Source: Crocinitomicaceae bacterium (GTDB lineage: Bacteria; Patescibacteriota; Minisyncoccia; Phycocordibacterales; UBA1006). Taken from it: 64,000 nucleotides of DNA. Every line of letters begins with the position of its first letter. The stretch's first letter is position 1. Position numbers and translations under genes: made by a program. Positions 14,915 to 64,000 of the stretch are shown here, piece by piece. The notes under the pieces were generated by a model. The model ran no database searches and was not told the origin of the DNA. It saw nothing but the letters and a program-made list of their open reading frames with translations. The stretch covers positions 8,294-72,293 of the forward strand of contig JBLIKX010000001.1 in assembly GCA_047637555.1 (NCBI GenBank). The letters run 5' to 3'.

Positions 14915-15745
14915 TTATTTTCGGTTTAAGTAATCTTGATAATCCATTTCATTTTTTCCTTCTGGAATAATACGCTTAATGGTGAAGGAATTATTGGAAT
15001 ATTCAGCGTCAGTAATTTTCAAACGAACTTTGTTATCAAAAATAAAAGTACCAGGCCATCCATAATAGGCCCTATATTTTCGATCACGAGTGTGATTATT
15101 ATCATGGGTAATATCTCCATCTGCTTTTACAATTTTTCCACAGTATGTTGCTAGGGAATGGTCTTGTTCTATTGGTGTACAATTTCCTAAAATATATTCA
15201 GGTAAAATTTCCGCAAGAACTTTTCCTCCATCATGAGCTAGCATATGAAATAAATCAGGTTTTAAAAGATCTGACTCTAAAGGGAATTGTGACTGAGTAA
15301 TGATAGGACCTTCGTCCATTTTCAAAGTCATTTGCATGATCGTCGAACCAGTTTCATCATCACCATTAAGGATTGCTGACTCGATAGGTGAGGCACCACG
15401 ATATTTAGGGAGTAGTGATGTATGCACATTGAGCACTCCAAGCCTTGGGATGTTGAGTAGTTTTTGAGAAACAATATATCCATACGAGGCAACAATATAT
15501 AAATCATCATCCCTTTTTTCTAATTGTTCTATAATATATTTTGGTTTCTCTGGTTGCCAACATTCAATTCCGTGCTCGTCAGCCCATACCTTAACAGGTG
15601 GGGCTGTCATAATATGTTTCCGTCCAACAGATCGGTCGGGTGCTGTGATTATCAATGAAGGCATATAACCCACACTTTTTAATTCCTCGAGAACTATTAC
15701 TGAAAATTCAGGTGTTCCAAAATAAACAAATTGAGTATCTTTCAT
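14915..15745 (-). CDS. fmt: methionyl-tRNA formyltransferase
   Basis: 'VYFGTPEFSV' N-terminus and 'HTSLLPKYRGASPI' formyltransferase motif. Confidence 0.85.
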   Translation of the reverse strand: MKDTQFVYFGTPEFSVIVLEELKSVGYMPSLIITAPDRSVGRKHIMTAPPVKVWADEHGIECWQPEKPKYIIEQLEKRDDDLYIVASYGYIVSQKLLNIPRLGVLNVHTSLLPKYRGASPIESAILNGDDETGSTIMQMTLKMDEGPIITQSQFPLESDLLKPDLFHMLAHDGGKVLAEILPEYILGNCTPIEQDHSLATYCGKIVKADGDITHDNNHTRDRKYRAYYGWPGTFIFDNKVRLKITDAEYSNNSFTIKRIIPEGKNEMDYQDYLNRK

Positions 15746-15762
15746 GTGTACAGTATAGGTAA

Positions 15763-16213
15763 AAAAATAATTTCGTCATCTTACAAAAAACTGATATAAA
15801 AAATAAAGGATTTACCTTAATTAAACTACTCATTATTATTGTAATTATAGGTGTATTGGCAACTATCATAATTGGTTCGTCTGGTGATGTTTGTAATGAA
15901 GCTCTTGATTCAAAGGCAAAGACAAGACCCTCACAGACCCAAATTCAGGCTGAGCTATAATCATTTGATACAGGTTCCTATACAGAGCTTTATGATACAG
16001 ATACTCTTAGCTTTATGGTATTTCAAACTTTAGATAATGTTTGGGGCACACAAGATATTTCAAATACTAATGTCAGTGCAGGCGAGGACAATTTATAGTT
16101 CTCTGTATCACGAAGCCCTTCTAGTAAATAATACTACAGCAACACAGGAGTCAGCATTGCTTGCTGGACATGCTCATCCTGTTAACAACGATGATAAAAA
16201 TTGTAATTAAAAA
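15763..16213 (+). pseudogene. decayed type IV pilin-like gene (no start codon, multiple in-frame stops)
   Basis: Frame 1 reads '..KGFTLIKLLIIIVIIGVLATIIIG...ALDSKAKTRPSQTQIQAEL*SFDTGSYTELYDT..', the class-III prepilin N-terminus plus the conserved 'RD.KR..D..QIQ.ALE.Y..D.G.YP' region. It is interrupted by TAA at 15958, TAG at 16096, and further stops, and there is no ATG/GTG/TTG upstream before a TAA at 15760. Confidence 0.55.
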
Positions 16214-16228
16214 CACCTCTAGGTGTTT

Positions 16229-16747
16229 TTAATTTTCATTCAAGACATCATCAATCTCATCTTGGGTCATATCTCGTAATTTACGTGCCTTGTCTACAAA
16301 TAATATTCCATGTAAATGATCTGTTTCATGTTGAAAAATATGAGCTAATAGTTCGTCTGCCGATTCGGTAAATTTATTTCCATATTCATCATAGGCCTCA
16401 ATAGTAGCTTCTTTAGACCGTTCTACATCACCAACTTTCCAACGACAGGATAGACATCCTTCGCGCATCCACTTTTTTTTCTCAGATGTTTCAATGATTA
16501 CAGGGTTAATATATACCAAATGTTCTCCTTGTGGCTCTTCAAATATAAAAGGGGCAACGGTGAAAATTTGATATGATTCACCAATTTGTGGAGCCGCAAT
16601 AGCCACGCCGTCACTCTGAGTGGTGAGTGATTCATGTAAATCTGAAATAATAGATTGAATTTTTTCTGAGGTAATTTTTGTTGGATCGACATACTCAGCT
16701 TTTTGCCGAAGGACCTTTTTCCCCATCTGAATAATATCTCGTTTCAT
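16229..16747 (-). CDS. def: peptide deformylase
   Basis: 'GVAIAAPQIG', 'EGCLSC', 'HETDHLHG' PDF motifs. Start taken at MKRDIIQMGKK; the track ORF extends to 16783, into the repeat. Confidence 0.85.
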   Translation of the reverse strand: MKRDIIQMGKKVLRQKAEYVDPTKITSEKIQSIISDLHESLTTQSDGVAIAAPQIGESYQIFTVAPFIFEEPQGEHLVYINPVIIETSEKKKWMREGCLSCRWKVGDVERSKEATIEAYDEYGNKFTESADELLAHIFQHETDHLHGILFVDKARKLRDMTQDEIDDVLNEN

Positions 16748-16767
16748 ATCTCTTAGAGTAAAATTAA

Positions 16768-16946
16768 ATGAAGAAAAGAGCAATAGCGACTATTATGAAT
16801 TTATGCTGTGCGAAATGAAGAAAAGAGCAATAGCGACTATTATGAATTTATGCTGTGCGAAATGAAGAAAAGAGCAATAGCGACTATTATGAATTTATGC
16901 TGTGCGAAATGAAGAAAAGAGCAATAGCGACTATTATGAATTTATG
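16768..16946. repeat. 47-bp tandem repeat, 3 perfect plus 1 partial copies
   Basis: The unit 'atgaagaaaagagcaatagcgactattatgaatttatgctgtgcgaa' starts at 16768, 16815, 16862 and 16909. On the plus strand each unit is an ORF 'MKKRAIATIMNLCCAK' whose TGA overlaps the next ATG (ATGA). Confidence 0.9.
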
Positions 16947-16973
16947 CAAAATAAAAAACACTTTAAGCTAGGT

Positions 16974-19410: not shown

Positions 19411-19945
19411 ATTTAGAACAAAAATTAAAAAAAGTACGAGATAGCTTATTCCTATTTTTTAATAATTACTGTTTTTTCACCTATGCTATTTGTGTTTATT
19501 CAAGAAAGAATTAAGTTGACTGAGATTTTTTAGAATATGAATGAGGTCAAGAGCGCAGATAATTAATAAAGAAGAGTATTAATTAATACATTAAATGCTG
19601 AATATTTACTCCCAGTAGTCTTAATTATCTTAGTTGCTTAAGACATACAAATTTGTGCTTATTGCTGACGATTATCATATTAACATTAGGTATATGATTG
19701 AAATTGCAATTATATGAATTATTCTTGAGCTACTCCTTAACTATCCGTCTACCTTAGACTTGTGCAAATTATTCTTGTGATACTTGGTCTTTGGTTAGCT
19801 ATTATTTATCATATTTTTATCCATTTATGATAAATGAACCACTCTGTTTGGTTATTACCTAATGTGCTTGAAAATTAAGCTAATGTGGTAAATTAAATGT
19901 AGTTGCCGACCATGTTTAAACTTAAACAGGTCTGTGGTTATTATC

Positions 19946-19988
19946 GCCATCATAGCTCAGTTGGTAGAGCGCCACCATGGTAAGGATA
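19946..19988 (+). pseudogene. truncated tRNA-Thr(GGU)-like 5' half (acceptor, D-arm, anticodon loop only)
   Basis: 'GCCATCA-TA-GCTC-AGTTGGTA-GAGC-G-CCACC-ATGGTAA' gives a canonical acceptor strand, D-arm and an anticodon loop reading GGT. The 3' anticodon-stem strand ('GGATA') does not pair, and no T-arm or 3' acceptor follows. Confidence 0.5.
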
Positions 19989-20005
19989 CGAGGCTGAGTG
20001 AGTAC

Positions 20006-20036
20006 AAAAAAACCACAGCAATAAGCTGTGGTTTTT
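20006..20036. terminator. rho-independent terminator (serves minus-strand rnpB; bidirectional)
   Basis: CCACAGC-AATAA-GCTGTGG hairpin with a 7-A run 5' and a 5-T run 3'. Confidence 0.65.
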
Positions 20037-20040
20037 ATAT

Positions 20041-20364
20041 GTTTATGTCGATAAGCCGGATCCTGTCTAGGGTAATCATTTATCTTGATTATATGTCACC
20101 ATATAATTCCTTGCGGCACTCTGAATAAATTCAGTACGACTTTGCATGTGGGTAAGGGTTTAGCCGTTTCACTATCTATGTCACCATAGAAATTCATCTA
20201 CTAGAGATGCCATCATCTTTCGAATTAGGCGTCACTGCTCGCACCTCGCGTATTACTACGGACAGGGGTTACCTGCTACCATTTTTGAACTCCGAAGAGT
20301 AAAACATGTCCGGACTTTCCTCACTTTCTGGTAAACCAGATTCGCGCGATTACCTAACATAAAC
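20041..20364 (-). ncRNA. rnpB: RNase P RNA (bacterial type)
   Basis: On the minus strand: P1 is GUUUAUGU (5') pairing with ACAUAAAC (3'). P3 is the hairpin CUGGUUUACCAG. The P4 5' strand is 'AGUGAGGAAAGUCCGGAC' (consensus GGAAAGUCCGG). CR-II-like is 'GUGAAACGG'. CR-III / P4 3' strand is 'GACAGGAUCCGGCUUAUCG' (consensus ACAGAAnCCGGCUUAUCG). Total about 324 nt. Confidence 0.8.
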
Positions 20365-20445
20365 ATTAGTAGTGTACGGTATGTTATTAAAAATACAAAT
20401 AAAAAAAGCAGATATACTGCTTTTCTTTTTCTAAAAGAAAAAATT

Positions 20446-20568
20446 ATTTTTCCTCTTCTTTTTTTGTAAGTTGAGTTAAATCAAATACCTCACAGTTATA
20501 GCTTTCTCCTGGTTCAGAACAATCGGTCTGGATTGACACTGACATTTCATCTATGGGTGTTTTCTTCA
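20446..20568 (-). CDS. possible 40-aa small protein (MKKTPIDEMSVSIQTDCSEPGESYNCEVFDLTQLTKKEEEK)
   Basis: ATG ORF immediately upstream of rnpB, followed by the hairpin AGCAG-ATAT-ACTGCT and a T-run (20407..20430, read on the minus strand). Confidence 0.25.
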
Positions 20569-20643
20569 TGATACTAAGTTTTTTCTAGTATAGCTAAAAT
20601 ACACTATTCTTGGCAAGTCCTTTTATGTGGATATACTGGATAT

Positions 20644-45135: not shown

Positions 45136-45650
45136 ATGAATACATCAAAAGAAGTTACTCTTATCGAATTTTTATTTGTTATCTCAATTATTGGATTATT
45201 ATCCACCATTATTGTAGGCAGCTTGTGCGATGATCGAGCTTGAGATATTAAACAACTTGGAAGTATTAGAACAATTCAAATGGCATTAGAAATTTATAAT
45301 TTAGATAATGGTTTTTATCCCCCACATGCTGTTTAACTTGCGTTCAACCTAATTCATCTAAGGGTGCTTAGGTATAAAGTCCATATACTTCTTGGGAAAA
45401 TCTAAGTTTTGGACTAGGAATCACATTAGTTGTTGATATTATAAATTATGAAGGTTTGAGTACCACAATTGGAGATAGACTATATAATTATGATTATTTC
45501 AAATCTGTTCCTAGTTACCCAAAAGGTTCAGGATATTTTATTAAAGTTAAACTAAAATCAGATTTTTCCTGCAACTACTTTAGATCCTGAGGTTAAACCT
45601 TGTGATACGGGTACTAAATATTATTAGGGTTCTGGTATTACCATATGAGC
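45136..45650 (+). pseudogene. decayed type IV pilin-like gene
   Basis: The ATG at 45136 starts 'MNTSKEVTLIEFLFVISIIGLLSTIIVGSLCDDRA*DIKQLGSIRTIQMALEIYNLDNGFYPPHAV*', i.e. prepilin leader, hydrophobic helix and the conserved RD.K...IR.IQ.ALE.Y..DNG.YP block, broken by in-frame TGA and TAA. Downstream there are frameshifts and stops in all frames. Confidence 0.6.
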
Positions 45651-45713
45651 ATCTCCTCTTTTACAAGTTCTCGTAGGGCTTTTTTGTTTTAATAAATTCG
45701 CTATAGTGTTTGT

Positions 45714-47744
45714 ATGTCACAAAAGTTTAATCTTCAATCAGAATATTCACCTGCAGGTGATCAGCCAAAGGCCATAGAGACTCTCGTTAGTGGACTTAAA
45801 AAAGGTCAGGAAAAACAAACACTCCTAGGAATAACCGGTTCAGGTAAAACTTTTACGATGGCAAATGTGATCCAGCAAGTCCAACAGCCAACTTTGGTTA
45901 TTGCCCACAACAAGACACTTGCTGCTCAATTAGCACAGGAATTTCAAGAATTTTTTCCAGAGAATGCCGTTCATTATTTTGTTTCCTATTATGATTACTA
46001 TCAGCCTGAGGCCTATGTTACAGCGAGTGATACATACATCGAAAAAGACGCACAAATTAATGATGAAATTAATCGCCTTCGTCATGCAACAACTCAATCC
46101 TTGTTACTACGTAATGATGTAATTATTGTGGCATCTGTTTCGTGTATTTATGGTTTAGGTTCACCGAAAGAGTATTTTGACAAAAACTTTTTAATTACGG
46201 TTGGTGAGAAATTATCTAAAATAGATATTATGCGGCGACTCGTTGAAATTCAATTTGATAGAACAACGGCCGATCTTACTCCTGGAGCATTTCGTTCGAT
46301 AGGAAACACTATTGATATTATGCCAACGTCGTCTGAAAAGATTATGTACAGTATTGATATCACAGGAGGGGTGGTAGATCAAATTCAAGTCATTAATCCT
46401 GTTTCAGGAGTTATCCTAGAAGAAATTGATCATATTGTTATTTTTCCAGCAAAACATTTTATGACTGATGGTGACAAGAAAGAGACTGCCATGAAACTTA
46501 TTAAGGAAGAATTAAATAAATCTCTAGCAGAATTTCAAAAGGAAAATAAATATTTAGAATATGACCGTTTAAAGCGTCGGACAGAATATGATTTGGCAAT
46601 GATTCGTGAGGTTGGTTATTGTTCAGGTATTGAAAACTATTCGAGACACCTTTCTGGTAAGAAAGAAGGAGAGGCTCCAGACACACTAATCTCATATTTT
46701 CCTCATGATAAAAACGGCAAACCAGAATTCCTAACAATTATAGATGAGTCTCACATGACGATTCCACAAATCCGTGCGATGTATGCAGGCGATCAATCTC
46801 GAAAAGGAAATTTAGTACAACACGGATTCAGACTACCTAGTGCCAAAGACAACCGGCCCTTACAATTTCCTGAATTTGAGAATCGTGTTGGTCAGCAAGT
46901 CTACGTTTCGGCAACACCAGCAGATTATGAACGAGAGGTCTCAGAAACCCTGGTTGAGCAAATTATTCGTCCAACAGGACTCCTAGATCCAATCGTAGAA
47001 CAACACGGTGTAAAGGCTCGAACAGAGGACGATTATCCAGGTCAAATTCAACATTTTATTGCTCAGGCACAAATTGATATTGAAAAAGGCGGACGGGTAC
47101 TCGCAACAACGCTCACCAAAAAAATGGCAGAGGATTTATCAATATACCTCAAGGATAAAGAAATAAAGGCAGAGTATTTACATAGTGATGTAAAGACCAT
47201 GGACCGTATCAAAATTATTACTGAGTTTAGGAAGGGAAGCTTTGATATTTTGATTGGGGTTAATTTATTACGTGAAGGGTTAGATTTACCAGAGGTAACC
47301 TTAATTGGGATTCTTGACGCAGATAAGGCAGGGTTTTTGCGTTCTAAAACATCATTAGTTCAAACAATTGGACGTGCTGCTCGTAATCAGAATGGTCGTG
47401 TTATTGTCTATGCTGATCATATGACAGAAGCTCTTGAATTTGCGGTTTCTGAAACAGCTCGTCGCCGAAAATTGCAACAGATCCATAATAAAAAGAATAA
47501 CATCACTCCAGCGACAATTAAAAAAACTATTCATGATATTACCGAACGTATGCAATCAGAACATGTAAAGACGGTTTTGAGTGAAATGGAAACAGATCTT
47601 TCTGCCTTTAGTGGGAATATTAAAAAATTAATTAAGTATAAAAAGAGGGCAATGAACGATGCTGTGAAGGAGTTAGATTTTGAACGTGCGGCTATTGTAC
47701 GGGATCAGTTGATTGAGTTGGAGGGAAGGCTAGGTGAAGAATAA
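45714..47744 (+). CDS. uvrB: excinuclease ABC subunit B
   Basis: Walker A 'GITGSGKTFTMANVI', beta-hairpin region, helicase motifs, C-terminal UVR domain 'FERAAIVRDQLIELE'. Confidence 0.9.
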   Translation: MSQKFNLQSEYSPAGDQPKAIETLVSGLKKGQEKQTLLGITGSGKTFTMANVIQQVQQPTLVIAHNKTLAAQLAQEFQEFFPENAVHYFVSYYDYYQPEAYVTASDTYIEKDAQINDEINRLRHATTQSLLLRNDVIIVASVSCIYGLGSPKEYFDKNFLITVGEKLSKIDIMRRLVEIQFDRTTADLTPGAFRSIGNTIDIMPTSSEKIMYSIDITGGVVDQIQVINPVSGVILEEIDHIVIFPAKHFMTDGDKKETAMKLIKEELNKSLAEFQKENKYLEYDRLKRRTEYDLAMIREVGYCSGIENYSRHLSGKKEGEAPDTLISYFPHDKNGKPEFLTIIDESHMTIPQIRAMYAGDQSRKGNLVQHGFRLPSAKDNRPLQFPEFENRVGQQVYVSATPADYEREVSETLVEQIIRPTGLLDPIVEQHGVKARTEDDYPGQIQHFIAQAQIDIEKGGRVLATTLTKKMAEDLSIYLKDKEIKAEYLHSDVKTMDRIKIITEFRKGSFDILIGVNLLREGLDLPEVTLIGILDADKAGFLRSKTSLVQTIGRAARNQNGRVIVYADHMTEALEFAVSETARRRKLQQIHNKKNNITPATIKKTIHDITERMQSEHVKTVLSEMETDLSAFSGNIKKLIKYKKRAMNDAVKELDFERAAIVRDQLIELEGRLGEE

Positions 47745-61548: not shown

Positions 61549-62724
61549 TTGCCCTATAGTGCTATGTCAAAAAAAATTACTACAAAAAAAAATACCATCA
61601 TTTTCGATATAGATAGTTCATCAATTGGAGCTGCATTAGTTCAATATGGTTATACTGTAAACAAAAAAAATATTTCAACTATTGAGCTGTGTTCTGTTCG
61701 TAAGAATATTACTGGTGGCAATAAATATTCATTTGAAGAATTTTTTAAGAGAACAGCGAGAACTTTAGATGAAGTTGCTCAAGAAATTTATCTCCAATCA
61801 CTCGTACCATTAGACGAAATAGTTATTAATGTCGCTGTTCCTTGGTCGAGTTCACAAAAAAGGAACCTAGTGTATTCTTCAAAAAAAGCTTTTCTTTTTA
61901 CTCATGAGTTATCTACAAAACTTATTCACCAGGATTCTGAACTTTCTTTTGATATAAATATCGACTATGCGGGACATGATGTTGAATTAATACAAAGAAA
62001 AAATCTAGAAGTATATGGAAACGGATACCCTATGAGAAATCCAATAGGTAAAGAAGTCTCAGATATTGAGATACATTTTCTTACATCAGTAATGTCTTCA
62101 GGTACTAAAAATATTTTTACTGACATCATTGAAAGAGTATTTCATAGAACTCCGCGATTTATATCGAACACTTTTGTTCAATATCAGGAACTACGTGTAC
62201 TTTTGCCTCATGTTGATAATGCGGTAATCGTTGATATCAGTGGTGAGGTAACTGAAATGATTGTTGTTAAGGAAGATAATCTATTACATATTGGATCTAT
62301 TCCTGTTGGAACGCAGGGCATCATTCGTCATTTATCTGATGAATTACATATATCTCCCGCAAAAGCACGTACTCTTGTAGATTTATACAAAAACACAGGT
62401 CTTGGTGTTGAATCAAAAGAAACTCAAAATGCTATCAAAAAATCATTTAGGTATTGGTTCAGAGAATTTTATACCCTGCTTGATGACTACAGCAAGCAAG
62501 GACTCCTCCCTCATGTTTTGATCGTTAATGCTCATAATGAAGTTAGGTCGTGGTTTGAAGAATTACTCATGGCAGAGGATTCCCTCAGAGAACATATGCA
62601 TACACAGGGACGAATCGAACTTCTTCATATTCCAATACGAAGTTCTGATGCGAATACTACACACGCTTTTTTGGATCCAGCTCTGGGTATTATTGCTGCG
62701 TATATTGAGCAAGAAACAAAATAA
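61549..62724 (+). CDS. actin-like ATPase-fold protein, PilM/FtsA-like (putative pilus assembly)
   Basis: N-terminal 'TIIFDIDSSSIGAALVQ' resembles the PilM/FtsA phosphate-1 motif ('lGlDIGsssIK.v.l'). Second-half 'VDISGEVTEMIVV' resembles the phosphate-2 motif. No strong family match. Confidence 0.35.
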   Translation: MPYSAMSKKITTKKNTIIFDIDSSSIGAALVQYGYTVNKKNISTIELCSVRKNITGGNKYSFEEFFKRTARTLDEVAQEIYLQSLVPLDEIVINVAVPWSSSQKRNLVYSSKKAFLFTHELSTKLIHQDSELSFDINIDYAGHDVELIQRKNLEVYGNGYPMRNPIGKEVSDIEIHFLTSVMSSGTKNIFTDIIERVFHRTPRFISNTFVQYQELRVLLPHVDNAVIVDISGEVTEMIVVKEDNLLHIGSIPVGTQGIIRHLSDELHISPAKARTLVDLYKNTGLGVESKETQNAIKKSFRYWFREFYTLLDDYSKQGLLPHVLIVNAHNEVRSWFEELLMAEDSLREHMHTQGRIELLHIPIRSSDANTTHAFLDPALGIIAAYIEQETK

Positions 62725-62729
62725 AAAGT

Positions 62730-64000
62730 ATGAAAAAATCTGGTCGAAAAAAAAATATAGATGGCATTTCATTGCGAAAAAAAAGAACGAGAGCAACTCG
62801 TTCTTTTCATAAAGCAAAGCCGGCTGTAAAAATACCTCTTAATGTATCTACAAAACCAATTACTCGAAGAAGAGATTTAAATATAAAACTCTTCTCTCGC
62901 AAGGAATTACTAAAAAACACACCTCTATATATTTCAAAAGAAGTACTCCCTAGAAGAAACAGGCAGATAAAGAAAAAAATTATTCACACTATTGACAAGG
63001 TTTTCAATCATAAAATCACTTCTTTATTTATTAAGATAATTATTGTGGTTGCTGCTATTTTCATTTTTTTTAATAATCGAGACAGAACTACAATGACCGT
63101 TCGGCCACATTATCAGTACCTTGAGTTATCAGAGTTAATTAAGGTATATAAAAACCCAAAGGAAGGAGATTTAGGTTTTGATATCATTGCTATAACTGAA
63201 GAGGTAACATCTTCGGTAATAGCAGACGAAGAACGCCCAATGCTGGTTAAATCTTCAGGCGAAATAATTATTTATAATAATTATAGTACAGAACCTCAAC
63301 GATTGATTCCTGAGACGCGCTTCAAAACGGCGGGAGGAAAGATTTTTTTCTTAGGAAAGGAAGAAGTAATTATCCCTGGTAAGGTAGGTGATAACATAGG
63401 TAGTACTACGGCTATTGTATATGCAGAAAAAGCAGGGGAACAATATAATATAGATACTACCGATTTTAGCGTTCCAGGTTTTAAGGAGTCTGGATTGATT
63501 GATAAGTATAATGGAATATATGCAGTCTCTACACAAATGATGGAAGGGGGGTTCATTGGGAGTGAAGCATATGTTTCTGAAAATGAACGTTTAAAGGCAG
63601 AACAAGCATTAAGCATAGATCTTGTTGATCGACTCCGCAGTAGACTTAATAGGGAAAAAACAGAGAATACTTTCTTAGTAGAGGGGAGTGAAAAGTATAG
63701 GTTTAAAGAGTCAGAATACCTTTCAGATGCTCTTGGTTCTGCGGGTGTATTATCCCAACGGGGAACTATTCTCGCTATTGTTGTAGGTAATAAATTCCTA
63801 GGTGAATACATTGCAGATAATTATTTTGAAATAAGTGATACTGAAAGTGTTAAGATGTTACAGTATGATGATGCACGCTTAACACTCAATAATAATACTT
63901 TTGATTTTGAGAATAGTGATATTGCCGAAATTAATGTTTCAGGTTCACTTCTTTATGTATGGAACATTAATAAAGAGTCATTAGCAAATAACATAACAAA
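62730..64000 (+). CDS. bitopic membrane protein, 3'-partial (PilN-like topology); not in the supplied ORF track
   Basis: Hand translation from the ATG at 62730 (frame 0) is open to the window edge. It gives a basic roughly 85-aa N-terminus, one TM ('ITSLFIKIIIVVAAIFIFF'), then an extracytoplasmic domain. It overlaps, and so invalidates, the antisense ORF 63296..63811. Confidence 0.5.
   Translation, partial: MKKSGRKKNIDGISLRKKRTRATRSFHKAKPAVKIPLNVSTKPITRRRDLNIKLFSRKELLKNTPLYISKEVLPRRNRQIKKKIIHTIDKVFNHKITSLFIKIIIVVAAIFIFFNNRDRTTMTVRPHYQYLELSELIKVYKNPKEGDLGFDIIAITEEVTSSVIADEERPMLVKSSGEIIIYNNYSTEPQRLIPETRFKTAGGKIFFLGKEEVIIPGKVGDNIGSTTAIVYAEKAGEQYNIDTTDFSVPGFKESGLIDKYNGIYAVSTQMMEGGFIGSEAYVSENERLKAEQALSIDLVDRLRSRLNREKTENTFLVEGSEKYRFKESEYLSDALGSAGVLSQRGTILAIVVGNKFLGEYIADNYFEISDTESVKMLQYDDARLTLNNNTFDFENSDIAEINVSGSLLYVWNINKESLANNIT

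What the first reader, a model, noticed from the sequence alone, without database searches (positions are those of the whole stretch)
15763..16213. Decayed type IV pilin gene lodged in the def-fmt spacer (antisense to the operon)
The classic def-fmt pair is separated here by 483 bp. That spacer carries, on the opposite strand, an unmistakable prepilin N-terminus (KGFTLIKLLIIIVIIGVLATIIIG) and the conserved pilin alpha-1C block. It has no start codon and at least four in-frame stops. A second, independently decayed pilin (45136..45650) begins with an ATG and an intact leader but hits TGA and TAA within 65 codons. Two separately pseudogenised major-pilin-like genes in 64 kb, in a lineage that otherwise keeps PilM-like machinery (61549 onwards), suggests ongoing pilin turnover or a reservoir of silent pilin cassettes.
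Basis: seen in the sequence. Interest (0 to 1): 0.55.

Follow-up and report, generated by a model that had tools for sequence, protein, structure and literature searches.

The report
Decayed pilin gene between def and fmt
The 483-bp gap between the housekeeping genes def and fmt in this small-genome (Patescibacteria/CPR) bacterium holds the dead remnant of a type IV pilin gene. It is an ordinary pseudogene and part of a visible gain-and-loss churn of pilin genes in this lineage, not a store of silent pilin cassettes.

Summary
The + strand of the gap reads IKNKGFTLIKLLIIIVIIGVLATIIIG..., a prepilin N-terminus without a start codon.

The gap is identical, or differs by 1 nt, in five independent assemblies, so the lesions are not sequencing errors.

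phmmer against 1.84 billion proteins gives 2184 hits (best E 6e-13) to pilins of about 130-180 aa. A family profile aligns through the first stop codon, over model positions 7-107 of 157.

Inferred lesions:
- ATG->ATA at the start
- Glu5->Lys
- TAA at 15958
- both cysteines of the first disulfide lost
- a frameshift near 16090
- an unrecognisable C-terminus

Relatives (fmt 77-80% identical, plus more distant ones) mostly have def and fmt 33-40 bp apart, so this is a lineage-specific insertion. Other relatives carry unrelated cargo at the same junction.

The second relic (45136-45660) is the decayed positional ortholog of an intact 180-aa pilin upstream of uvrB in a relative.

"Pilin turnover" is supported. 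"Silent cassette reservoir" is not: the copies share no nucleotide similarity and the architecture is wrong. The "PilM" call at 61549 is also unsupported.

Low to moderate interest.

The parts
15796..16210 (+). Relic 1, a decayed type IV pilin gene of about 138 codons. Ex-start ATA 15796-15798. Gly(-1) 15808-15810. Lys replacing Glu5 at 15823-15825. Nonsense TAA 15958-15960. Tyr replacing the conserved Cys at 15991-15993. TAG 16096-16098, with a probable frameshift near it. The tail is open in frame 3 from 16034 to 16207, with the presumed original stop TAA at 16208-16210.
   Evidence: Searches give the frames and stops. One search is the phmmer search (best 5.8e-13). Searches give the family HMM match, 77-87 bits over window 15790-16080, model positions 7-107 of 157. 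One search gives the family sequences (MKNKGFTLIELL..., LC......KTC).
15808..15876 (+). Prepilin cleavage/methylation motif and hydrophobic alpha-1N (GFTLIKLLIIIVIIGVLATIIIG).
   Evidence: the only regex match in six frames of the window. N_methyl. TIGR02532.
16205..16234 (.). A/T-flanked hairpin (AAAAACACC-tcta-GGTGTTTTT) that looks like a terminator on both strands. It follows the relic's stop and overlaps the def stop codon (16229-16231). It is absent from relatives with a tight def-fmt junction.
   Evidence: terminator scan. (junction sequences of relatives).
15746..15784 (-). fmt-proximal piece of the gap. It resembles the whole 33-39 nt ancestral def-fmt spacer of relatives (AAGATG..., T-run, then TATACT 6-7 nt before the fmt ATG). 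This suggests that the insertion lies between this piece and the def stop.
   Evidence: alignment with L100, L102, L111. The sequence is short and AT-rich, so the homology is only suggestive.
14915..15745 (-). fmt (methionyl-tRNA formyltransferase), intact.
16229..16747 (-). def (peptide deformylase), intact. Public gene calls use the ATG at 16747 (172 aa). The mechanical ORF starts at the TTG at 16783.
45136..45660 (+). Relic 2, a second decayed pilin gene immediately upstream of uvrB (45714). Gly(-1)->Glu at 45151-45153. TGA at 45241. Frameshifts near 45325 and 45565. Further stops follow.
   Evidence: it aligns to residues 3-179 of the intact L109 pilin in three frame segments, 50-64% aa identity and 67% nt identity over 453 bp.

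Best explanation
Relic 1 is a pseudogene. A gene for a small type IV pilin, of the pilin family that is very abundant in CPR/Patescibacteria, was inserted with its own hairpin terminator into the normally 33-40 bp junction between def and fmt. It points against both genes. It was then inactivated and is now decaying neutrally.

Shown:
- homology to pilins extending beyond the first stop codon
- the absence of a start codon
- the stop codons
- sequence identity across independent assemblies
- a tight def-fmt junction in most relatives and in more distant outgroups
- unrelated cargo at the same junction in other relatives

Inferred from the family consensus:
- the individual lesions: ATG->ATA, Glu5 GAA->AAA, Cys TGT->TAT, a frameshift near 16090, and loss of a recognisable C-terminal third
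- that the element has no present function as a protein

The insertion is tolerated probably because fmt does not depend on read-through from def. A -10-like TATACT lies 6-7 nt before the fmt ATG in the window and in three relatives. This step is inference.

Relic 2 is the same kind of event at another site, and it has an intact ortholog in a relative.
For:: reading frame, missing start codon, stops; the gap is identical in 4 assemblies and differs by 1 nt in a fifth, so the lesions are real; stop codon usage in the window is standard (TAA 42, TAG 13, TGA 4), and the relic uses all three, so recoding does not rescue it; 2184 pilin hits, best 44% identity over residues 2-82, and one hit covers residues 2-99; family HMM 77-87 bits over model positions 7-107, with nothing detectable for positions 108-157 in any frame; family members start MKNKGFTLIELL and carry conserved cysteines where the relic has Tyr and Ser; def-fmt is 33-40 bp apart in L006, L021, L100/101, L102, L104 and L111; other cargo at the junction in L103, L105, L106 and L107; intact pilins in neighbouring junctions of relatives are 36-44% identical to the relic; the relic's GC (34.5%) is still like coding DNA (35.3%) and unlike non-coding DNA (28.2%); long open stretches remain. 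Together these point to fairly recent inactivation; relic 2 has an intact positional ortholog.
Against: No intact ortholog of relic 1 was found at the def-fmt junction in any relative. The nearest non-identical relative is only 80% identical in Fmt. It is therefore not shown that the copy was ever functional at this site; it could have arrived already dead, for example without a promoter. Only about 50 bp separate its ex-start from the fmt ATG. All copies of the gap come from one population (>99.9% identical), so selection on the relic cannot be measured. The C-terminal reconstruction (frame 3 tail) rests on an open frame and a ...KNCN* ending that only loosely recalls the family's ...K(T/S)C* ending. 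The profile was built from hits to the relic itself, so its N-terminal score is partly circular.
Confidence: 0.88

Rival explanations
1. Silent pilin cassette (pilS-like). The relics are promoterless donor copies that are recombined into an expressed pilin locus elsewhere in the genome to vary the pilus.
For: Two non-expressible pilin copies lie within 64 kb. Pilins are multi-copy and fast-evolving in this clade (PMC6744442). Only 64 kb of the genome can be seen, so an expression locus elsewhere cannot be excluded.
Against: The two relics share no nucleotide-level similarity with each other or with any other part of the window. They are only 43-45% identical at the protein level over 60 aa. 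They retain the constant N-terminal segment, while the variable C-terminal part is the most decayed, which is the opposite of pilS. They carry stops, frameshifts and lost cysteines that would be harmful if transferred. Relic 2 is simply the decayed ortholog of an ordinary expressed-type gene in a relative. There is no G4 motif. The relics are dispersed as single copies, not clustered.
Confidence: 0.03
2. A live gene hidden by assembly or sequencing error, by an alternative genetic code, or by programmed recoding.
For: CPR lineages with reassigned stop codons exist (established knowledge: code 25 in Gracilibacteria/Absconditabacteria). Metagenome assemblies can carry indel errors.
Against: The gap is identical in five assemblies from different samples and pipelines. 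TAA, TAG and TGA all occur in the relics. All three also terminate normal genes in the window, which is 84% coding under code 11. Independently of the stops, the start codon, Glu5 and the cysteines are lost.
Confidence: 0.02
3. Exapted relic. The protein is dead, but the DNA is kept because it now supplies regulatory parts: a bidirectional terminator that uncouples def from fmt, and/or promoter elements for fmt.
For: The hairpin terminator 16205-16234 overlaps the def stop codon and is absent from tight-junction relatives. Promoter-like hexamers occur on the minus strand inside the relic at 15862-15835 and 15779-15752. CPR genomes are compact, so a 483-bp dead spacer is unusual (only about 13 gaps longer than 250 bp in 64 kb).
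Against: Promoter-like sites are no more frequent than in shuffled sequence (13 found against 10.2 +/- 2.6 expected). The TATACT box next to fmt is also present in relatives without the insert, so fmt does not need the relic. There are no divergent copies with which to test conservation.
Confidence: 0.07

Closest known systems
Type IV pilins of CPR/Patescibacteria (N_methyl PF07963 / TIGR02532 proteins; 'fam000005' of Meheust et al. 2019, PMC6744442)
   Same: It has the same N-terminal architecture: a short basic leader, G|FTLIxLL, a hydrophobic alpha-1N, and an alpha-1C block of the form S..AR..A.D...K...SQ...QAE. Identity to members of about 130-180 aa is 39-56%. Intact members sit in the same syntenic block in relatives.
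   Different: It has no start codon, Lys in place of the conserved Glu5, a nonsense codon and a frameshift. Both cysteines of the first disulfide are replaced, and the C-terminal third is unrecognisable. It cannot make a pilin.
GspG-type major pseudopilins / ComGC (TIGR01710, NF040999; PDB 5wda, geopilin 7tgg/9egp)
   Same: The alpha-1 helix region matches: restored sequences score 33-46 bits to TIGR01710 over residues 4-70, and PDB hits reach E 2e-5 to 9e-5.
   Different: Scores are far below the equivalog cut-offs (about 80-89 bits). The similarity is confined to the shared pilin N-terminal helix.
Neisseria pilS silent pilin cassettes (established knowledge)
   Same: They are non-expressed, promoterless pilin-related sequences in the chromosome.
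   Different: pilS copies lack the constant 5' part and keep intact variable 3' parts. They share conserved nucleotide blocks with pilE, are clustered, and depend on a G4 element. Here the 5' part is kept and the 3' part is decayed. There is no nucleotide similarity between copies, no clustering and no G4.
def-fmt gene pair (established knowledge: usually adjacent and co-transcribed in bacteria)
   Same: The order is def then fmt on one strand, within the conserved block DUF192-lepB-hisS-def-fmt-ygjV.
   Different: The pair is interrupted by 483 bp that carry an antisense gene remnant and a terminator. In this clade the junction is interrupted repeatedly by different cargo.

Membership tests
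Type IV pilin / class III signal peptide protein (PF07963, TIGR02532) | Short positively charged leader ending in Gly(-1), followed by Phe/Met(+1) | tested here: met
   ...KNK-G|FTL at 15799-15819. Relic 2 fails this feature: it has Glu at -1 and Val at +1.
Type IV pilin / class III signal peptide protein (PF07963, TIGR02532) | Conserved Glu at mature position 5 | tested here: not met
   AAA (Lys) at 15823-15825 where the family has GAA. Relic 2 keeps Glu5.
Type IV pilin / class III signal peptide protein (PF07963, TIGR02532) | Hydrophobic alpha-1N of about 20 residues and profile match above the curated cut-off | tested here: inconclusive
   As the sequence stands, N_methyl scores 19.6 bits against a cut-off of 21.2. 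With M1, E5 and the stop restored, TIGR02532 scores 25.4 against 16.3.
Type IV pilin / class III signal peptide protein (PF07963, TIGR02532) | Homology beyond the N-terminal helix to bona fide pilins | tested here: met
   phmmer alignments reach residues 82-99. The family HMM covers positions 7-107 of 157.
Type IV pilin / class III signal peptide protein (PF07963, TIGR02532) | Intact ORF with a start codon (a functional gene) | tested here: not met
   There is no ATG, GTG or TTG start. TAA is at 15958 and TAG at 16096, with a frameshift. The sequence is the same in 5 assemblies.
Type IV pilin / class III signal peptide protein (PF07963, TIGR02532) | Conserved Cys pairs of the globular domain in this subfamily | tested here: not met
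   The family's 'LC' and 'vCa' positions are Tyr (15991) and Ser in the relic.
pilS-type silent cassette system | Nucleotide-identical tracts shared with an expression locus or with other cassettes | tested here: not met
   blastn-short of both relics against the window found only chance 11-13-mers. The rest of the genome is not available.
pilS-type silent cassette system | Cassettes lack the constant 5' region and keep usable variable 3' regions | tested here: not met
   The relics keep the 5' region, and the 3' region is the most decayed.
pilS-type silent cassette system | G-quadruplex or another recombination-initiating element near the pilin loci | tested here: not met
   No G3+N1-7 x4 motif on either strand of the window.
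PilM (T4P assembly ATPase-like protein), claimed for 61549-62724 | Match to PilM profiles (TIGR01175 / PF11104) | tested here: not met
   TIGR01175 scores 13.3 bits against a cut-off of 133. There is no PF11104 hit. Weak FtsA hits only: 25.8 bits against 31.8, and PDB 1e4f at E 0.15.

The most novel reading that the evidence does not exclude
In this Patescibacteria clade a few intergenic junctions of an otherwise frozen housekeeping block act as recurrent landing sites for accessory genes. The junctions seen are hisS|def, def|fmt, yjdM|ppiase and the region upstream of uvrB. Small pilin genes would behave as mobile, promoter-plus-terminator 'gene cassettes' that are inserted there, swapped and discarded. 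This would be a site-directed flux mechanism for surface-filament genes in genomes that lack classical mobile elements. Relic 1 would be a snapshot of the discard phase.
Probability: 0.15. Interest if true: 0.55.

Novelty: new member of a known kind. Interest (0 to 1): 0.25.

Why it matters
CPR/Patescibacteria have tiny, dense genomes, and pili are thought to be central to their attachment to host cells. Catching pilin genes at three stages documents rapid birth-and-death of these surface genes and gives a rough time series of decay. The stages are intact, a single nonsense mutation, and heavily decayed, all at defined junctions of a conserved housekeeping block.

The data also show that the classical def-fmt pair is not an obligatory operon in this clade. 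For annotation, it is a caution that pilin-like N-termini in intergenic DNA of such genomes may be relics. None of this is unexpected in kind.

Tried and rejected
- Word-indexed homology search with the conceptual translation of relic 1 found nothing. The exhaustive phmmer search was needed.
A plain sequence with X at the stop was accepted.
- I looked for an intact ortholog of relic 1 at the def-fmt junction and found none. The sources were the genome collection, the metagenome collection, and nine contexts of Fmt homologs at 77-80% identity.
- The L103 junction cargo was tested for relation to the relic and is unrelated.
- The C-terminal third of the family profile was searched in all three frames of the gap and was not detectable. 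The frame-3 tail is therefore supported only by its openness.
- Rfam at gathering thresholds finds no RNA family in the gap.
- The promoter scan is at chance level.
- An alternative genetic code was rejected on the basis of stop usage and coding density.
- The hisS-def spacer of the window was tested for a remnant of the pilin that relatives carry there, and none was found.

Full report
WHAT IS THERE

The window is AT-rich (34% GC). It is densely coding under the standard bacterial code: about 84% coding, with stop usage TAA 42, TAG 13, TGA 4. fmt (14915-15745) and def (16229-16783 as a mechanical ORF; public gene calls start at the ATG at 16747) both lie on the minus strand. Pfam identifies them at E 3e-30 and 4e-44. 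They are separated by 15746-16228, which is 483 bp.

The + strand frame that opens at 15763 reads KNNFVILQKTD-I-KNKGFTLIKLLIIIVIIGVLATIIIGSSGDVCNEALDSKAKTRPSQTQIQAEL*. It continues SFDTGSYTELYDTDTLSFMVFQTLDNVWGTQDISNTNVSAGEDNL*. A six-frame regular-expression scan found this prepilin motif only once in the 64 kb.

No ATG, GTG or TTG precedes the motif. In that frame the stops are at 15958 (TAA), 16096 (TAG), 16129, 16183, 16192, 16195 and 16204. Frame 3 is open from 16034 to a TAA at 16208-16210 (chance of this about 0.01). That stop lies directly in front of a hairpin, AAAAACACC-tcta-GGTGTTTTT (16205-16234). The hairpin looks like a terminator on both strands and overlaps the def stop codon.

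The most economical reading is a gene of about 138 codons, 15796-16210. It has lost its start codon, carries one nonsense codon, and has one frameshift near 16090.

IS IT REAL AND MORE THAN CHANCE?

The exact Fmt protein occurs on contigs from five independent assemblies: three JGI metagenomes and two Logan SRA assemblies. The gap is identical in four of them and differs at one base (16002) in the fifth. The lesions are therefore not assembly or sequencing errors. All five do represent one population (>99.9% identity).

Homology evidence:
- As the sequence stands, the translation matches Pfam N_methyl at E 7e-4, just under the curated cut-off.
- With Met1, Glu5 and the stop restored, it passes TIGR02532 (25.4 bits against a cut-off of 16.3) and matches the GspG/GspH/ComGC alpha-1 regions.
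- PDB sequence hits are pilins.
- An exhaustive phmmer search of 1.84 billion representatives gave 2184 hits at E<=1e-3. The best was 5.8e-13, at 44% identity over residues 2-82. Another hit covered residues 2-99, so the alignments run through the TAA at codon 55.
- The hits are pilins of about 130-180 aa that begin MK(N/S)KGFTLIELLVV... They carry conserved cysteines (...LC......C.D......FCVDS.G......K(T/S)C).
- A profile built from them aligns to the relic frame over model positions 7-107 of 157, at 77-87 bits. The last 50 positions are not detectable in any frame. This profile was built from hits to the relic, so its N-terminal score is partly circular.

Compared with the family, the relic differs as follows (inferred from the consensus):
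- ATA where the family has ATG
- AAA (Lys) where it has GAA (Glu5)
- TAT (Tyr, 15991) where it has the first conserved Cys
- Ser where it has the second conserved Cys

Several of these are G->A changes, as expected in a genome drifting towards AT.

The relic's GC (34.5%) is still that of coding DNA (35.3%), not of non-coding DNA (28.2%). Long open stretches also persist. Inactivation is therefore not ancient.

WHERE DID IT COME FROM?

Fmt homologs named by their sources are from Paceibacteria, Minisyncoccia or 'Patescibacteria group'. The nearest non-identical one is 80% identical. More distant genome hits (45-55%) are labelled Saccharibacteria. The organism is therefore a CPR/Patescibacteria bacterium.

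In relatives the block DUF192-lepB-hisS-def-fmt-ygjV-glutaredoxin-yjdM...ppiase-truB is conserved. The state of the def-fmt junction in those relatives is:

| Locus | Fmt identity to window | def-fmt junction |
|---|---|---|
| L100/L101 | 78% | tight, 39 bp |
| L102 | 79% | tight, 33 bp |
| L104 | 77% | tight, 36 bp |
| L111 | 79% | tight, 39 bp |
| L006, L021 | 46-55% | tight, about 40 bp |
| L103 | 80% | a 133-aa ORF on the def strand |
| L106 | 78% | a homolog of the L103 ORF, plus an antisense DUF378 gene |
| L105 | 78% | a 364-aa antisense ORF |
| L107 | 77% | a NUDIX gene |
| L045, L046 | 71-75% | def is not upstream of fmt at all |

None of this cargo is related to the relic. By parsimony the tight junction is ancestral. 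The junction has been invaded repeatedly, and the pilin remnant is specific to the window's lineage.

The 39 nt next to fmt in the window resemble the complete ancestral spacer (AAGATG..., a T-run, then TATACT 6-7 nt before the ATG). This places the insertion between that piece and the def stop. It also suggests, as inference only, that fmt has its own -10 box and a near-leaderless transcript. That would explain why the junction tolerates inserts. The hairpin terminator is absent from the tight junctions, so it probably arrived with the pilin gene.

PILIN FLUX IN THE CLADE

Intact N_methyl pilins that match the same profile (85-125 bits) lie antisense at other junctions of the same block:
- between hisS and def in L103 and L105
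- between yjdM and the ppiase gene in L102 (420 aa), L104 (178 aa) and L107 (164 aa)

They are 31-44% identical to relic 1.

In L107 the hisS|def pilin has one in-frame stop after codon 82. It otherwise aligns at 57% identity along all 171 residues of its L103 counterpart. That is a pilin at the first step of decay, although it rests on a single contig.

A relative whose UvrB is 89% identical (L109) has an intact 180-aa N_methyl pilin in exactly that position and orientation. Relic 2 aligns to residues 3-179 of that pilin in three segments across two frameshifts, at 50-64% aa identity and 67% nt identity over 453 bp. Two other relatives (L108 and L110, 90% and 88%) have no pilin there. It carries about five nonsense codons.

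WHAT IT IS NOT

Not a silent-cassette store. The two relics share 43-45% protein identity over 60 residues but no nucleotide similarity with each other or with anything else in the window. No third pilin-like sequence, intact or not, exists in the 64 kb. The relics retain the constant 5' part and have lost the variable 3' part. No G4 motif is present. The whole genome is not available, so a distant expression locus cannot be formally excluded.

Not a recoded or mis-assembled live gene.

Not shown to be regulatory. Promoter-like hexamers are at chance frequency, and Rfam finds nothing in the gap.

The 'PilM-like' gene at 61549 is a divergent actin-fold protein with weak FtsA-type matches and no PilM signal. 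Ten further large genes tested are housekeeping genes: dnaG, sigma factors, a glycosyltransferase, a class II aminoacyl-tRNA synthetase, yceG, mnmA, a PIF1-like helicase and others. The window therefore shows no pilus machinery.

COMPARISON WITH WHAT IS KNOWN, AND VERDICT

Pilins are one of the protein families most enriched in CPR genomes, alongside a disulfide oxidoreductase thought to fold them (Meheust et al. 2019, PMC6744442). Decay of single members of a large, fast-evolving surface-protein family is expected. Two literature searches found no paper focused on pilin pseudogenes in CPR, but the phenomenon is ordinary in kind.

What is mildly notable is the setting. This is a compact genome in which 483 bp of dead DNA splits the classical def-fmt pair. 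In this clade the junction, and a few others, repeatedly take up and lose small accessory genes.

The 'pseudogene' and 'turnover' parts of the interpretation are supported. The 'cassette reservoir', 'PilM machinery' and 'intact leader' parts are not. I rate it as a new member of a known kind, with interest about 0.25.

Noticed in passing
window 16766-16947: A perfect 47-bp tandem repeat (3.9 copies, 100% matches) fills the hisS-def spacer and starts 19 nt upstream of the def ATG (16747). Assembly L001 has one unit fewer, so this is either a copy-number polymorphism or assembly collapse. Several relatives carry an antisense pilin gene at this same junction. No pilin remnant is detectable here.
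   Followed up: partly
window 20036-20365 (-): A bacterial class A RNase P RNA scores 96.6 bits (E 7e-30), just under Rfam's gathering score of 100, so the default scan missed it. It sits in a 1.2-kb stretch with no ORF (19411-20643). The remaining roughly 600 bp (19411-20035) are unexplained.
   Followed up: partly
L107 1397-1960 (-): In a relative, the pilin between hisS and def has a single in-frame stop after codon 82. It otherwise aligns over all 171 residues (57% identity) with the intact L103 pilin. It is either a freshly pseudogenised pilin or a single-contig error.
   Followed up: partly
def|fmt junction in L103 1901-2352, L105 1744-3000, L106 1919-3000, L107 2523-3000: The def-fmt junction is an insertion hotspot in this clade. 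It holds a 133/140-aa unknown protein (homologous between L103 and L106), a DUF378 gene, a 364-aa unknown antisense ORF, or a NUDIX hydrolase. Other close relatives keep 33-39 bp.
   Followed up: partly
window 15746-15757 (- strand); L100, L102, L111 just upstream of fmt: A -10-like TATACT lies 6-7 nt upstream of the fmt ATG, with no Shine-Dalgarno sequence, and is conserved between the window and three relatives. This suggests that fmt has its own promoter and a leaderless or near-leaderless mRNA.
   Followed up: no
window 45714-47744 (uvrB): The identical UvrB protein is deposited in NCBI under 'MAG: Crocinitomicaceae bacterium' (Bacteroidota) on an 87-kb contig. All close relatives of this and other window genes are Patescibacteria. 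The contig is probably mis-binned in that MAG.
   Followed up: no
window 61549-62724 and 62727-64000: A 391-aa divergent actin-fold protein has its best NCBIfam hit to 'MAG3720 family' (24 bits) and only weak FtsA matches. It is followed by a protein of more than 420 aa (running off the window) with a Lys/Arg-rich N-terminus and one TM segment. Neither could be assigned.
   Followed up: partly
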